Assembly: GCF_000027125.1 (NCBI RefSeq)
Contig: NC_017626.1
Length of the DNA: 64,000 bases
Reading direction: 5' to 3' (one strand)
DNA from: Escherichia coli 042
GTDB taxonomy: Bacteria > Pseudomonadota > Gammaproteobacteria > Enterobacterales > Enterobacteriaceae
The position numbers were made by a program, and so were the translations under genes. The notes beneath the pieces are model-generated. The model saw only the letters and a list, made by a program, of their open reading frames with translations. It had not been told where the DNA came from and ran no database searches. Shown in pieces: positions 5,531-21,030 of this stretch. The stretch's first letter is position 1; each line of letters begins with the position of its first letter.

Positions 5531-6268
5531 ATGACGTTAACTGCTTCATCTTCTTCCCGCGCTGTTACGAATTCTCCTGTGGTTGTTGCCCTTGATTATC
5601 ATAATCGTGATGCCGCGCTGGCCTTTGTCGACAAGATCGACCCACGCGATTGTCGTCTGAAAGTCGGCAAAGAGATGTTTACGCTGTTTGGACCTCAATT
5701 TGTACGCGAACTTCAACAGCGTGGTTTTGATATCTTCCTCGACCTGAAATTTCACGATATTCCCAACACTGCAGCGCACGCTGTCGCTGCTGCAGCTGAC
5801 TTAGGCGTGTGGATGGTGAATGTTCACGCCTCCGGTGGGGCGCGTATGATGACCGCAGCGCGTGAGGCACTGGTTCCGTTTGGCAAAGATGCACCGCTTT
5901 TGATTGCTGTGACAGTATTGACCAGCATGGAAGCCAGCGACCTGGCCGATCTTGGCGTGACACTGTCACCTGCAGATTATGCAGAACGTCTGGCAGCACT
6001 GACGCAAAAATGTGGCCTTGATGGTGTGGTGTGTTCTGCTCAGGAAGCTGTGCGCTTTAAACAGGTATTTGGTCAGGAGTTCAAACTGGTTACACCGGGC
6101 ATTCGTCCGCAGGGGAGTGAAGCTGGTGACCAGCGCCGCATTATGACGCCAGAACAGGCGTTGGCGGCTGGTGTTGATTATATGGTGATTGGTCGCCCGG
6201 TAACGCAATCGGTAGATCCAGCGCAGACGCTGAAAGCGATCAACGCCTCTTTACAGCGGAGTGCATGA
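5531..6268 (+). CDS. pyrF: Orotidine-5'-phosphate decarboxylase
   Basis: 245 aa from internal Met ([22 protein letters not shown]...); ORF track start at 5471 is an upstream in-frame extension. Confidence 0.92.
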
Positions 6269-13859: not shown

Positions 13860-14648
13860 TTATTTCAGTTCGAGTTCGTTCATTGCAGCGATGCTGAAAC
13901 CGCCGTCAACGTGGACCACTTCACCGGAGATACCGGCAGAGAGATCGGAGCACAGGAATGCCGCAGAGTTACCCACATCTTCAATGGTAACGGTACGGCG
14001 AATCGGGGTAACGGCTTCGCAATGAGCCAGCATTTTGCGGAAGTCTTTGATACCGGAAGCCGCCAGAGTACGGATCGGACCCGCAGAGATGGCGTTAACA
14101 CGCACACCTTCCGGACCCATCGCGTTCGCCATATAGCGCACGTTTGCTTCCAGAGACGCTTTTGCCAGACCCATAACGTTGTAGTTCGGGATAGCGCGCT
14201 CAGCGCCAAGGTAGGAAAGGGTCAGCAGGGCAGAACCCGGATTCAGCATGGAGCGGCAAGCTTTTGCCATTGCAACGAAGCTGTAGGAGCTGATGTCGTG
14301 GGCAATTTTGAAGCCTTCACGGGTAACGGCGTTAACATAGTCACCATCCAGCTGATCGCCAGGTGCAAAACCAATAGAGTGTACGAAACCGTCAAATTTC
14401 GGCCAAACTTTCCCCAGTTCAGCGAACATGGTGTCGATGCTGGCATCTTCTGCAACATCGCACTGCAGAACGATGTCAGAACCCAATTGAGCGGCAAATT
14501 CTTCTACGCGGCCTTTCAGTTTGTCGTTCTGGTAGGTGAATGCCAGTTCAGCTCCTTCGCGGTGCATCGCCTGAGCGATACCGTAGGCGATGGACAGTTT
14601 GCTGGCAACACCGGTTACCAGAATGCGCTTACCGGAAAGAAAACCCAT
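13860..14648 (-). CDS. fabI: Enoyl-ACP reductase (NADH)
   Basis: 262 aa; [28 protein letters not shown]... is the classic FabI N-terminus. Confidence 0.96.
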
Positions 14649-14812
14649 AGCTTTAATCCTTATTGTTGATGCTTGTTGTGCCTGAAAATCAGGCGATTCG
14701 TCGTTTTAGTAAACAGTACGAACAGATAAACGGTTATTATAATCAACCTGGCTGTGAGTGGCTATAGTTGCCAGGTCCGACCGGAGCAGGGTGCGGGCAG
14801 GGTGGGCGCTTT

Positions 14813-15070
14813 TCCCCTCACCCTAACCCTCTCCCCAGAGGGGCGAGGGGACCGTATTGTGCAAATATTGTCACCCCAGCAACAAACAGGCTTATACAGC
14901 CCCCTAACCCTTTCAGGGCGATGGCTGGGGTGAGAGTGAATGGTGGTTCAGACCTTGCCGAATATTCTTCATCATCCGCCTCCATGTTTTCACCACAACA
15001 GCTATTCGGCTCGGTCGGCCCCCTCGCCCTTTCAGGGAGAGGGTTGGGGTGAGGGTGACAGGCGGTTCAG
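14813..15070. repeat. Cluster of three GC-rich imperfect palindromic intergenic repeat units
   Basis: Three related units (cccctcaccctaaccctctccccagaggggcgagggg; ccccctaaccctttcagggcgatggctggggtgagagtg; ccccctcgccctttcagggagagggttggggtgagggtg) between fabI and ycjD. Confidence 0.7.
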
Positions 15071-15397
15071 TTCCTGCAGAATAATCTCCAGCACCGCCTC
15101 CTCATTACAATCAATCTCGTTATTCCAGAAACGCAGCACGGTCCAGCCCTGCGACTCAAGCCAGCTAGTGCGCCTGGAATCATAGGCAACTGCCAAATCA
15201 TGCTGCCCACCATCCAGCTCAACTACTACACGCGCCGAGCAGCAAGCAAAATCGAGAATGTAGCTCCCCACCGGATGTTGACGGCGAAATTTGAAATCAC
15301 CAAAACGTCGGCTGCGAAGATATCGCCAGAGCTTTCGTTCCTGCGAAGTGAGATTGCGTCTTAAATCACGCGCATTTGATTTTATTTTATCCATCAC
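15032..15397 (-). CDS. ycjD: DUF559-family protein YcjD
   Basis: About 120-aa ORF; its 3' end runs into the repeat cluster. Confidence 0.75.
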   Translation of the reverse strand: MMDKIKSNARDLRRNLTSQERKLWRYLRSRRFGDFKFRRQHPVGSYILDFACCSARVVVELDGGQHDLAVAYDSRRTSWLESQGWTVLRFWNNEIDCNEEAVLEIILQELNRLSPSPQPSP

Positions 15398-15464
15398 CTC
15401 ATTCTGACAAGATTTAATCTCTTGTCAGAATGAGGTGAATAATCTGGAAGGAGGATTCAGAAAA

Positions 15465-16271
15465 TTAACGATCTTTACGCCACGCATCCGCCGTCAATGC
15501 CTCGCCAAAATGACCGGCAATAAGCCGTTTGGTGAGTTCATGCAGCGGCGATGCCAGCACATCGGCGGTGCTGCCTCGCTCGACAACCTCGCCCTGATGC
15601 ATCACCAGCACCTGGTCGCTAATGTGCTTCATCATTCCGATATGCTGGGTAACATAAATATACGAAATGCCCTGTTTTTCCTGTAACTCAAGCATCAGAT
15701 TAATCAACTGCGAACGCATCGACATATCCAGTGAGGCGAGGGCTTCATCGGCAATAATGACTTTTGGGCGCAATATCAGCGCGCGTGCCAGACCCAGACG
15801 CTGTTTTTGCCCGGGTGCCAACATATGCGGATAGTAACTGACGTGATCCGGTAGCAGCCCAACCATACGCATCGTTTCAATAATCTGTTTGCGACGCTGT
15901 TCCGGTTCCAGGTCGGTGTTCAGACGCAGTGGAAAATCCAGAATTTGCGAGATACGTTGACGGGGATTCAACGAGGTCGAAGGATCCTGAAAAATCATGC
16001 GAATACGCTGACTGCGGAAGGAATAATCGCCAAAATGCAGCGGATGATCGTCAATCAATAACTCGCCGCTGGTAGGTTCTATCATTCCCGCCAGCATTTT
16101 TGCCAGCGTGGATTTACCCGAACCATTCTCGCCAATAATCGCCAGTGTCTGGCCTTCACGTAGCGTAAAGCTCAAGGGTTTTACCGCTTCTACGGTCTGA
16201 CGACGAAACCAGCCGGTTCGATAGCGGAACGTTTTACTTAAATTACGCACTTCAAGCAGCGTTTCGATCAT
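15465..16271 (-). CDS. sapF: Peptide/putrescine ABC transporter ATPase SapF
   Basis: 268 aa; Walker A (GENGSGKST) and ABC signature. Confidence 0.92.
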   Translation of the reverse strand: MIETLLEVRNLSKTFRYRTGWFRRQTVEAVKPLSFTLREGQTLAIIGENGSGKSTLAKMLAGMIEPTSGELLIDDHPLHFGDYSFRSQRIRMIFQDPSTSLNPRQRISQILDFPLRLNTDLEPEQRRKQIIETMRMVGLLPDHVSYYPHMLAPGQKQRLGLARALILRPKVIIADEALASLDMSMRSQLINLMLELQEKQGISYIYVTQHIGMMKHISDQVLVMHQGEVVERGSTADVLASPLHELTKRLIAGHFGEALTADAWRKDR

Positions 16272-20994: not shown

Positions 20995-21030
20995 AGCCGG
21001 ATGCGGCGTGAACGCTTTATCCGGGCAACG
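20995..21030. repeat. REP (palindromic unit) element
   Basis: gccggatgcggcgtgaacgctttatccgggc matches the canonical E. coli REP consensus. Confidence 0.6.

What the first reader, a model, noticed from the sequence alone, without database searches (positions are those of the whole stretch)
14813..15070. GC-rich palindromic repeat cluster between fabI and ycjD, overlapping the ycjD 3' end
Three related units of about 40-50 bp (cores CCCTCACCCTAACCCTCTCCCC...GGGG and ...GGGAGAGGGTTGGGGTGAGGGTG) sit in alternating orientation between convergent fabI and ycjD. The last unit overlaps the final codons of ycjD, so the ycjD C-terminus (…SPSPQPSP) is encoded by repeat sequence. Such repeats can form strong secondary structures acting as mRNA stabilisers or terminators.
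Basis: seen in the sequence. Interest (0 to 1): 0.3.

Follow-up and report, generated by a model that had tools for sequence, protein, structure and literature searches.

The report
BoxC repeats ending nuclease gene ycjD
These are three copies of E. coli's long-known "BoxC" triplex-forming repeat, at the locus cited as its first description. Comparison with 80 other bacteria shows that such repeats are the inverted end-pieces of the small nuclease gene ycjD, which gives this orphan repeat family a candidate partner enzyme that can be tested.

Summary
Three related GC-rich units lie at 14815-14849 (A), 14902-14936 (B, degenerate) and 15021-15055 (C). Unit C supplies the last 7 codons and the stop of ycjD. 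One detail is wrong: fabI and ycjD are not convergent, both are on the minus strand.

The units are BoxC repeats (also called PIT or TMECO). Unit A is identical to published TMECO #9, and this fabI (envM) region is where BoxC was first reported. The repeat-encoded tail varies between strains: 121 aa here, 117 aa in K-12-type alleles, through a 12-nt deletion inside unit C. Published tests found no terminator or promoter activity for these elements.

The new result came from 80 loci in many phyla, retrieved with the YcjD (DUF559, Vsr-like nuclease) domain alone:
- 61 carry BoxC-like three-block repeats within 150 nt of the gene.
- They lie G-rich upstream and C-rich downstream, as inverted flanks.
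- 64 of 79 have flanking inverted repeats above shifted controls.
- The blocks co-vary in a way that keeps the hairpin and the mirror (triplex) symmetry.

I read the cluster as one ycjD unit plus decayed copies, and BoxC as a REP/RAYT-like partner of this nuclease. The association is shown. The nuclease acting on the repeats is inferred.

The parts
14815..14849 (-). Unit A: an intact BoxC/TMECO of type A-mm (loop 2 = TTA). Read on the minus strand it is CCCTCGCCCCTCTGGGGAGAGGGTTAGGGTGAGGG.
   Evidence: It is identical to TMECO #9 of Holder 2015 Table 1 (MG1655 1351239-1351204). A 55-nt query around it finds a median of 19 places per E. coli genome.
14902..14936 (+). Unit B: a degenerate BoxC, CCCTAACCCTTTCAGGGCGATGGCTGGGGTGAGAG, with 3 substitutions from the pattern. 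K-12-type alleles carry a 13-nt deletion relative to this allele at the unit's 3' edge (about 14930-14942), which removes most of the third block.
15021..15055 (+). Unit C: an intact BoxC/TMECO variant (loop 2 = TTG). On the ycjD coding strand it reads CCC TCA CCC CAA CCC TCT CCC TGA, which is PSPQPSP followed by the stop.
   Evidence: It matches the strict published pattern. It overlaps the annotated ycjD CDS by 24 nt.
15039..15050 (+). A 12-nt segment (GAGGGTTGGGGT) that is absent from K-12-type alleles. It is bounded by direct GAGGGT repeats. Its loss turns the three-block motif into a plain hairpin and shortens YcjD from 121 to 117 aa.
   Evidence: The long form is also present in E. ruysiae (P0006). 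The long allele occurs in about 180 of 3326 ycjD-bearing genomes.
15032..15397 (-). ycjD, a 121-aa DUF559 protein (Vsr-like PD-(D/E)XK nuclease fold). The domain ends at residue 111 and the tail is encoded by the repeat.
   Evidence: Pfam DUF559 E=1e-48 over residues 4-111. NCBIfam PRK09767. PDB 3HRL E=1e-27. The family profile also hits homing endonuclease 3R3P at E=0.004.
14937..14983 (-). A remnant copy of the last ~47 nt of ycjD coding sequence, lying directly 5' (on the minus strand) of unit B. It is part of the 119-nt tandem duplication.
   Evidence: Direct repeat 14865-14983 versus 14984-15102, about 73% identical. The similarity to the ycjD 3' end is clearer in K-12-type alleles.
14736..14764 (-). 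A sigma-70 promoter-like site for fabI (TAGCCA, 17 nt, TATAAT; 10 of 12 matches), about 50 nt downstream of unit A on the minus strand.
   Evidence: a consensus match only. It lies inside the segment conserved in all E. coli, up to 14771.
14772..15396 (.). A strain-variable cassette (ycjD plus the three BoxC units). About 2080 of 5426 E. coli genomes carry the 7.9-kb eefRABCD efflux operon here instead.
   Evidence: PMC12817139
15399..15433 (.). A perfect 13-bp-stem hairpin downstream of sapF that abuts the ycjD ribosome-binding site and start codon. A diverged version is present in eef-type strains, so it belongs to sapF and not to ycjD.
   Evidence: The Rfam 'miRNA' hits here are hairpin noise.

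Best explanation
The three units are BoxC repeats (the same family as PIT elements and TMECO). Each has a pyrimidine block, a complementary purine block and a mirror-image second purine block, which can form a hairpin or an intrastrand triplex.

They are not independent intergenic structures. They are the end repeats of the ycjD gene unit. Across bacteria, a YcjD-type DUF559 nuclease gene of about 100-120 codons is bracketed by inverted copies of such repeats. The hairpins face outward, with the G-rich reading upstream and the C-rich reading starting about 20 nt after the domain.

In this window, unit C is the 3' end repeat of an intact ycjD, and the ORF simply runs into it until it meets a stop in the hairpin loop. 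Unit B, with 47 nt of duplicated ycjD 3' end, is a decayed partial second copy. Unit A is the inverted type-A partner, as seen downstream of the gene in other Enterobacteriaceae.

Inferred mechanism: the repeats act at the DNA level as structured recognition ends for the Vsr-like nuclease. The nuclease propagates or maintains them and their gene-less singlet and doublet derivatives, which are the dispersed BoxCs of E. coli. This is analogous to REP/REPIN elements and their RAYT transposase. The PSPQPSP protein tail is incidental. In E. coli the system may be largely decayed.
For: SHOWN - identity of the units.
- Unit A equals published TMECO #9, and C fits the published pattern.
- The family has a median of 19 places per E. 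coli genome.
- There is no REP core at the locus.

SHOWN - link between the gene and the repeats.
- YcjD homologues at 55-69% identity from many genera end in PSPRPSP or PSPQPSP, or in read-through ...KGEG, which is the translation of BoxC.
- 80 loci were retrieved with a domain-only profile (tail removed; patterns ELDGGQH and KFRRQHPVG). 61 have a three-block motif within 150 nt of the gene, and block-shuffled sequence gives 0 hits.
- Near the 5' end, 49 of 59 hits are G-rich. Near the 3' end, 48 of 67 are C-rich. Density is about 56-fold higher than in the flanks.
- A test that ignores the motif gives the same answer: 64 of 79 loci have flanking inverted repeats above the 95th percentile of shifted controls (median score 23 versus 8, p=3e-27).
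- Loci that miss the regex have the same design with different block sequences.
- The third block mirrors the second in 51 of 73 asymmetric units and is better matched as a direct copy in 7.
- Reverse test: of 120 metagenome loci chosen only by the motif, 4 carry a YcjD-type gene whose 3' end lies 12-50 nt from the motif.

SHOWN - the constraint is on DNA, not protein.
- The 3' repeat has 0.92 column identity against about 0.7 in the gene across Enterobacteriaceae. L013 has its stop before the repeat.
- The repeat sits in all three reading frames (20, 15 and 9 loci), with the stop before, inside or after it.

SHOWN - mobility and family ties.
- One Omnitrophota genome has a roughly 500-bp unit (502-bp alignment), 99.8% identical, in two unrelated contexts. 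Each copy is flanked by its own 10-bp direct repeat.
- Homologues occupy different contexts in E. coli, Enterobacter and Phytobacter.
- Dispersed copies resemble the gene-flanking copies of the same locus (0.82 versus 0.70, p=4e-9).
- E. coli doublets read [type A, G-rich]-spacer-[type B, C-rich]. Type B and its flanks match the 3' ends of Enterobacter-type genes.
- The family profile hits a mobile-intron homing endonuclease (3R3P, E=0.004).

INFERRED: that the nuclease binds or cleaves the repeats.
Against: - There are no biochemical data for any YcjD protein.
- E. coli ycjD has no recognisable upstream repeat.
- E. coli genomes whose best match is not at the fabI locus, and which therefore presumably lack ycjD, still carry BoxCs. 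O157:H7 has about 15. Others, including B2 strain 536, have 2-7. Copy number is therefore not simply tied to the gene.
- Only about 3% of motif occurrences in metagenomes are attached to a gene. The gene-less copies show no detectable DUF559 fragments.
- Holder et al. reported the motif as always intergenic, not associated with mobile elements and without a gene-class link. In vivo tests by the Maher group found no effect.
- dN/dS among E. coli alleles is 0.35-2 on very few sites, and pseudogenes exist.
- The evidence for target-site duplication rests on a single pair of copies.
They are not a random sample of all DUF559 genes.
Confidence: 0.55

Rival explanations
1. The gene is the parasite of the repeats. 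BoxC doublets exist for another reason, and the YcjD-type gene is a free-standing homing-endonuclease-like gene that inserts into the spacer of a doublet. That would produce [G-rich]-gene-[C-rich], and the nuclease would cut empty doublets.
For: Gene-less G-rich-to-C-rich doublets with 13-53-nt spacers are common. They have the same polarity as the gene flanks. The family profile weakly matches homing endonuclease I-Bth0305I. No gene remnants are found in doublets.
Against: This does not explain who spreads the doublets. In Enterobacteriaceae the gene is followed by a C-rich-then-G-rich pair and is not enclosed by a doublet. The duplicated Omnitrophota unit extends 59 nt and 32 nt beyond the repeats and carries flanking 10-bp direct repeats. 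That pattern fits insertion of a whole unit better than homing into a doublet.
Confidence: 0.15
2. RNA-level role. The repeats fold in the ycjD transcript as a 3' stabiliser, terminator or insulator that separates ycjD read-through from the fabI promoter.
For: The predicted long C:A stem has a z-score of -6.6. The cluster sits between the ycjD stop and a promoter-like site for essential fabI. A weak terminator-like hairpin lies just after unit B.
Against: PIT/BoxC elements showed no terminator or promoter activity in published tests, as summarised in PMC4666352. None of the three units is itself called terminator-like in the scan. The same repeats also flank the 5' side of the gene in most taxa, and in the inverted orientation. 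An RNA 3'-end role does not predict that. Dispersed copies show no bias in orientation or distance relative to genes.
Confidence: 0.1
3. Inert relics. The association with DUF559 genes is real but ancient. In E. coli the three units and ycjD are decaying leftovers with no present activity, and they matter only as slippage-prone, instability-promoting DNA.
For: Two in-frame or near-frame deletions lie inside B and C in most strains. An IS421 insertion abuts unit A, and one strain has an internal stop in ycjD. The whole cassette is swapped for eef in other phylogroups. dN/dS is not clearly below 1. Holder 2015 links these motifs to local genome variability.
Against: ycjD is intact and conserved in thousands of genomes of phylogroups A, B1 and C. 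Unit A is 96-100% conserved in most of them. This reading is compatible with, and not exclusive of, the main explanation.
Confidence: 0.15
4. The proline/serine-rich tail (PSPxPSP) is a selected protein feature, and the DNA repeat similarity is secondary.
For: The tail is present in most Enterobacteriaceae homologues.
Against: The 7 tail codons of the type-B copies (L010-L014) are identical across genera except in the variable loop codon. Column identity over the repeat is 0.92, against about 0.7 in the gene. One homologue has its stop before the repeat yet keeps the repeat. The repeat occurs in all three frames, giving unrelated tails such as PLPQAGEG and HPNPLP. K-12 loses 4 residues. The Pfam domain and the PDB homologue end before the tail.
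Confidence: 0.02

Closest known systems
BoxC / PIT elements / TMECO. Sources as cited in PMC4666352: Bergler et al. 1992 (envM paper), the Maher laboratory 2000 (PIT elements), and Holder et al. 2015 (NAR 43:10126).
   Same: This is the same element. Unit A is sequence-identical to TMECO #9 and unit C fits the published pattern CCCTCNCCC-N3-6-GGGNGAGGG-N3-GGGNGAGGG. The family is dispersed at about 20 copies per genome. The fabI (envM) upstream region is the locus of the paper cited for the first BoxC description.
   Different: The published accounts call the motif always intergenic, unlinked to any gene class and unlinked to mobile elements. Here, unit C encodes the end of ycjD in the long allele. 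The family also turns out to bracket YcjD-type nuclease genes in many phyla. K-12, the strain studied before, carries the deleted form of unit C, which hides the link.
REP/BIME/REPIN elements and their RAYT (TnpA-REP) transposases
   Same: Both are short structured GC-rich palindromic repeats, dispersed as singlets and inverted doublets. In both, a usually single-copy chromosomal gene is flanked by inverted copies of the same repeat, and repeat variants are genome-specific.
   Different: The protein is a DUF559 Vsr-like PD-(D/E)XK nuclease, not an HUH/Y1 transposase. The repeat has three blocks (a hairpin plus a mirror purine block, which can form a triplex), not a simple REP hairpin with a GTAG head. 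There is no REP core at this locus. Nothing has been shown about activity.
IS200/IS605-type elements and MITEs
   Same: These are compact units with structured (hairpin) ends that are recognised as DNA structure, and they have gene-less short derivatives. One recently duplicated unit here has flanking direct repeats of about 10 bp.
   Different: There is no known transposase fold. The repeats are subterminal in the one unit whose boundaries could be mapped. Gene-less copies carry no gene remnants.
Vsr endonuclease and the Vsr-like homing endonuclease I-Bth0305I (PDB 1CW0, 3R3P); uncharacterised N. gonorrhoeae protein 3HRL
   Same: YcjD shares the nuclease fold family. Matches are 3HRL at E=6e-38, 3R3P at 0.004 and Vsr at 0.5 with the family profile. 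The ELDGGQH motif is invariant.
   Different: YcjD-type genes are free-standing. They are not inside introns and are not paired with a cytosine methyltransferase at this locus. The substrate is unknown.

Membership tests
BoxC / TMECO / PIT repeat family | Sequence pattern CCCTCNCCC-N3-6-GGGNGAGGG-N3-GGGNGAGGG (Holder 2015) | tested here: met
   Units A and C match exactly, and A is identical to TMECO #9. Unit B fails by 3 substitutions and is a degenerate copy.
BoxC / TMECO / PIT repeat family | Dispersed in multiple copies in E. coli chromosomes | tested here: met
   96,226 places in 5425 genomes, with a median of 19 per genome.
BoxC / TMECO / PIT repeat family | Formation of a stable intrastrand triplex by the G-rich strand | not testable with these tools
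   Holder 2015 showed this in vitro for type A-mm oligonucleotides. The only support here is indirect: the third block co-varies as the mirror of the second (51 versus 7 units).
REP / BIME | REP (PU) core consensus GCC[G/T]GATGCG[G/A]CG | tested here: not met
   There is no match, even with up to 2 mismatches, between 14780 and 15080. Exact REP cores occur elsewhere in the window at 20996, 30413 and 60628.
REP-RAYT-type system (repeat family plus dedicated flanked gene) | Gene flanked by inverted copies of the dispersed repeat | tested here: met
   61 of 80 loci by motif and 64 of 79 by the motif-agnostic test. In E. coli itself only the 3' side is met.
REP-RAYT-type system (repeat family plus dedicated flanked gene) | Encoded protein is an HUH/Y1 (IS200-like) transposase | tested here: not met
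   The protein is Pfam DUF559 / MTES_1575, a Vsr-like PD-(D/E)XK fold. It is therefore not a member of this family, only analogous in architecture.
REP-RAYT-type system (repeat family plus dedicated flanked gene) | Protein binds and cleaves the repeat | not testable with these tools
   This needs biochemistry.
Intrinsic (Rho-independent) terminator | GC-rich hairpin immediately followed by a T-run | tested here: not met
   The scan finds no terminator-like site at units A, B or C. There is only a weak 5-bp-stem site at 14902-14888 (minus strand), and the count is not above shuffles. Published assays were negative.
Pfam DUF559 (YcjD) | Score above the Pfam gathering threshold | tested here: met
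   164 bits against a cutoff of 20.6, residues 4-111.
Known anti-phage defence systems (PADLOC) | Match to a defence-system protein model | tested here: not met
   0 families.
Rfam RNA families | Match at the gathering score | tested here: not met
   There are only sub-threshold eukaryotic miRNA/snoRNA noise hits, mostly on the sapF hairpin.

The most novel reading that the evidence does not exclude
BoxC/PIT/TMECO triplex-forming repeats have been orphan elements for over 30 years. The most novel reading not excluded is that they are the cis-acting ends of a previously unrecognised family of ~0.45-0.5-kb units that spans many phyla. Each unit would encode a YcjD/DUF559 Vsr-like nuclease that recognises a hairpin-plus-third-strand DNA structure. 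The units would be either still mobile or domesticated in the way RAYTs are. The dispersed BoxC singlets and type A + type B doublets of E. coli and other bacteria would be its non-autonomous derivatives. The genome instability reported around them would follow from nuclease action.
Probability: 0.4. Interest if true: 0.85.

Novelty: new variant of a known kind. Interest (0 to 1): 0.72.

Why it matters
BoxC (PIT, TMECO) is one of the classic E. coli repeat families, and it has had no known origin, partner protein or function. DUF559/YcjD is a very widespread nuclease-fold family with a solved structure (3HRL) and no known substrate.

Linking the two gives each a concrete, testable hypothesis: does YcjD cut or bind BoxC DNA? 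It would add a second repeat-plus-dedicated-enzyme system alongside REP/RAYT, built on a different nuclease fold and possibly on recognition of triplex DNA. It would also give an evolutionary argument, through mirror-block covariation, that intrastrand triplexes are biologically relevant structures.

Locally, it explains three things:
- why the YcjD C-terminus differs between E. coli lineages;
- why K-12 hid the connection;
- why type A and type B BoxCs always pair.

Tried and rejected
- Rfam scan of the locus: only sub-threshold miRNA/snoRNA noise on hairpins.
- PADLOC: no defence-system match.
- REP/BIME classification: rejected, no REP core at the locus.
- Protein-level function of the tail: rejected because of the DNA-level conservation, a stop before the repeat in L013, and the repeat occurring in all three frames.
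- Search for DUF559 gene fragments next to gene-less repeats in 163 metagenome regions against 240 controls: no enrichment of weak hits, so the internal-deletion (MITE) model gets no direct support.
- Generic scan for target-site duplications around the 80 units: uninformative, because the palindromic repeats themselves dominate the direct-repeat hits.
- dN/dS among E. coli ycjD alleles: too few substitutions to be conclusive.
- BoxC copy number against ycjD presence in E. coli: no simple dependence. Low counts (2-7) were seen only in genomes that lack the locus copy, but O157 has about 15. Phylogroup could not be assigned for each row.
- Plasmid carriage: rare, 43 of 72,556 records, many of them chromids or mislabelled chromosomes.
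- The Bergler 1992 paper could not be read. Its role as the first BoxC report rests on its citation in PMC4666352 and on my own recollection.
- Two literature searches returned only off-topic 'box C/D snoRNA' papers.
- No upstream BoxC could be found for E. coli or other Enterobacteriaceae ycjD genes. The hairpin upstream of ycjD also exists in eef-type strains, so it belongs to sapF.

Full report
**What is in the window**

The window is E. coli and is 100% identical to strain 118UI. The local genes are all on the minus strand: sapD, sapF (15465-16271), ycjD (15032-15397), fabI (13860-14648) and yciW. The repeats lie downstream of ycjD and upstream of a promoter-like site for fabI at 14764-14736.

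Three related units are present:
- A at 14815-14849.
- B at 14902-14936.
- C at 15021-15055.

They align at 81% mean column identity. The shared 21-mer is expected 0.01 times by chance in the window. A and C form a 40-nt inverted repeat. B and C share one orientation because they belong to a ~119-nt tandem duplication, 14865-14983 versus 14984-15102, about 73% identical. That duplication also copies the last ~47 nt of ycjD coding sequence. Unit C overlaps the annotated CDS by 24 nt. On the coding strand it reads CCC TCA CCC CAA CCC TCT CCC TGA, which is PSPQPSP followed by the stop.

**Which repeat family**

The units are BoxC, also published as PIT elements and TMECO. Read on the minus strand, unit A is letter-for-letter TMECO #9 of Holder et al. 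2015 (Table 1, MG1655 1351239-1351204), which their supplement places between fabI and ycjD. Unit C fits their pattern with an unusual TTG second loop. Unit B is degenerate.

Holder et al. cite the 1992 envM (= fabI) sequence paper for the first description of BoxC. From my own recollection, this is the type locus. A 55-nt query around unit A finds a median of 19 places per genome in 5425 E. coli genomes. The locus has no REP core, no Rfam family, and none of the units is called terminator-like.

**Variation between strains**

Most ycjD-bearing E. coli genomes differ from this window in three ways:
- K-12, W and others lack 12 nt inside unit C (15039-15050). The segment is bounded by direct GAGGGT repeats.
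- They lack 13 nt at the 3' edge of unit B.
- Their YcjD ends ...NRRSPSP (117 aa) instead of ...NRLSPSPQPSP (121 aa).

The long allele is found in about 180 of 3326 ycjD-bearing genomes. E. ruysiae and all other genera have the two-block form, so the long form is ancestral and the K-12 form is a slippage deletion. PMC12817139 describes the same 12-nt difference as an insertion, without linking it to BoxC.

That paper and my searches also show that the whole 14772-15396 cassette (ycjD plus BoxCs) is replaced by the eefRABCD efflux operon in about 38% of genomes. In one strain an IS421 abuts unit A and ycjD carries an internal stop.

**The unexpected result**

YcjD homologues only 55-69% identical, from Enterobacter, Kluyvera, Klebsiella, Phytobacter, Lelliottia and others, nearly all end in PSPRPSP or PSPQPSP. 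Some read through into ...KGEGE or ...GRGS. These tails are the translation of a whole BoxC.

To avoid circularity I removed the tail and built a domain-only profile (A3). With it I fetched 80 loci from species-representative genomes. The search patterns used were ELDGGQH and KFRRQHPVG.

Results with a three-block regex allowing up to 3 substitutions:
- 200 hits in 836 kb, against 0 in block-shuffled sequence.
- 61 of 80 loci have a hit within 150 nt of the domain.
- Near the 5' end, 49 of 59 hits read G-rich on the coding strand.
- Near the 3' end, 48 of 67 read C-rich.

The canonical architecture is therefore [hairpin-G block]-gene-[C block-hairpin]: inverted repeats with the hairpins facing outward. 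The 3' repeat starts 8-39 nt after the domain end in 42 of 44 loci.

Further tests:
- A motif-agnostic test finds flanking inverted repeats above the 95th percentile of shifted controls in 64 of 79 loci. The median score is 23 versus 8, the control maximum is 15, and p=3e-27.
- The loci that missed the regex (Legionella, Gastranaerophilales, Xanthomonadaceae and others) have the same three-block design with other block sequences, sometimes with an extra small hairpin in loop 2.
- Across block variants, the third block matches the mirror image of the second better than a direct copy in 51 of 73 asymmetric units, and the direct copy better in 7. A fold-back purine-motif triplex requires exactly this.
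- Taxa include alpha-, beta-, gamma- and delta-proteobacteria, Nitrospira, Chloroflexi, Omnitrophota, Planctomycetes, Cyanobacteria and Melainabacteria.
- Reverse test: of 120 metagenome loci chosen only by the strict motif, 4 contain a YcjD-type gene whose 3' end lies 12-50 nt from the motif.

**The constraint is on DNA, not protein**
- Across Enterobacteriaceae the 3' repeat has 0.92 column identity against about 0.7 in the gene.
- One homologue has its stop just before the repeat and still keeps it.
- A type-A loop (TAA) terminates another after PSP.
- Family-wide, the repeat is met in all three reading frames (20, 15 and 9 loci), with the stop before, inside or after it. This gives unrelated tails such as PLPQAGEG.

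The YcjD tail is therefore incidental read-in.

**Mobility and the link to dispersed copies**
- In one Omnitrophota genome a roughly 500-bp unit (502-bp alignment) is 99.8% identical in two otherwise unrelated contexts. Each copy is flanked by its own 10-bp direct repeat: CAGTTCAAAA in one, and CGTGAATATT/CCTGAATATT in the other.
- Homologues in E. coli, Enterobacter-type and Phytobacter-type genomes sit in different neighbourhoods.
- Dispersed copies in the flanks resemble the gene-flanking copies of the same locus more than those of other loci (0.82 versus 0.70, p=4e-9).
- In K-12, doublets read [type A, G-rich]-spacer-[type B, C-rich]. This is the polarity of the gene flanks.
- Type B elements with their immediate flanks (TTT|ACCCTCACCCCGG...GGG|AGAAAAC) match the 3' ends of Enterobacter and Phytobacter genes. 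This gives a reason for the published rule that doublets always pair type A with type B.

**The protein**

YcjD is Pfam DUF559 and matches the uncharacterised N. gonorrhoeae structure 3HRL at E=1e-27. The family profile also reaches the mobile-intron homing endonuclease I-Bth0305I (3R3P, E=0.004) and, weakly, Vsr. It matches no known defence system.

**Interpretation**

Shown:
- The units are BoxC.
- Unit C ends ycjD.
- The tail varies between strains.
- YcjD-type genes are bracketed by BoxC-like inverted three-block repeats across phyla.

Inferred:
- The nuclease acts on these structured ends.
- The dispersed BoxCs are its non-autonomous derivatives, by analogy with REP/RAYT.

In this window I read C as the 3' end repeat of an intact unit. 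B plus the duplicated ycjD 3' end is a decayed partial second copy. A is the inverted type-A partner that follows the gene in all Enterobacteriaceae examined.

**Caveats**
- There is no biochemistry for any YcjD protein.
- E. coli ycjD has no upstream repeat.
- Genomes that appear to lack the locus keep 2-24 BoxC places.
- Gene-less copies carry no gene fragments.
- The target-duplication evidence is one pair of copies.
- Selection on E. coli ycjD is unclear.

**Prior art**

Full-text searches for DUF559, ycjD, TMECO/intrastrand triplex and RAYT/Vsr found no paper linking the gene family to the repeats. Holder et al. state that the motif is always intergenic and not associated with mobile elements or any gene class. 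K-12, the strain they analysed, has the deleted unit C.

**Verdict**

Following the overlap with ycjD leads to a well-supported and apparently undescribed association, which makes the origin and function of BoxC directly testable.

Noticed in passing
window 14772-15396; L003, L004, L009: The whole ycjD + BoxC cassette is an alternative to the 7.9-kb eefRABCD (TetR / RND efflux / MFS) operon between fabI and sapF. About 3345 genomes carry ycjD and about 2080 carry eef. The left breakpoint is at 14771/14772 and the right one at the sapF terminator hairpin. This is already described in PMC12817139.
   Followed up: partly
L007 (strain PSS-16) 335-1500, next to the unit A equivalent: An IS4-like IS421 is inserted immediately beside unit A, replacing the fabI-proximal sequence. 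ycjD in that strain has an internal stop.
   Followed up: no
window 15399-15433: A perfect 13-bp-stem hairpin lies between sapF and ycjD and abuts the ycjD Shine-Dalgarno sequence and GTG/ATG start. It drew all the top Rfam 'miRNA' noise hits. A diverged version exists in eef-type strains.
   Followed up: partly
proteins P0001-P0004, P0009-P0016, P0018, P0024: Database YcjD variants of 129-160 aa carry long tails such as ...GCMSLFVAGVTIFAQYGPLAPLGRGLG or ...KGRGGRPSRIAVVVKTW. These are frameshifted or read-through translations across units C, B and A, so gene callers often extend ycjD through the repeat cluster.
   Followed up: no
L023, L078, L054, L035: In Legionella, Gastranaerophilales and a gammaproteobacterial MAG, the flanking repeats carry an extra small hairpin (for example GCCCGATAGGGC or GGAAATCTTTGATTTCC) inserted in the loop between the two purine blocks.
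   Followed up: no
L041 (Variovorax) 5965-6001: The third block of the upstream repeat (GGGTGAGGG) contains an in-frame GTG just before the conserved N-terminus, with GGAGAGGG about 10 nt upstream. The 5' repeat may therefore supply the ribosome-binding site and start codon of the nuclease gene.
   Followed up: no
L064 and L065 5887-6388 (one Omnitrophota MAG): Two 99.8% identical ~500-bp nuclease units sit in unrelated contexts, each bounded by a different 10-bp direct repeat that looks like a target-site duplication. The duplicated segment extends 59 nt and 32 nt beyond the three-block repeats.
   Followed up: partly
E. coli genomes: BoxC-like places per genome fall into groups: 16-31 in genomes with the fabI-locus copy, about 15 in O157:H7, and only 2-7 in a set that includes B2 strain 536.
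   Followed up: partly
window 20996, 30413, 60628: Exact REP (PU) cores GCCGGATGCG[G/A]CG occur elsewhere in the window. These are ordinary REP/BIME elements unrelated to this finding.
   Followed up: no
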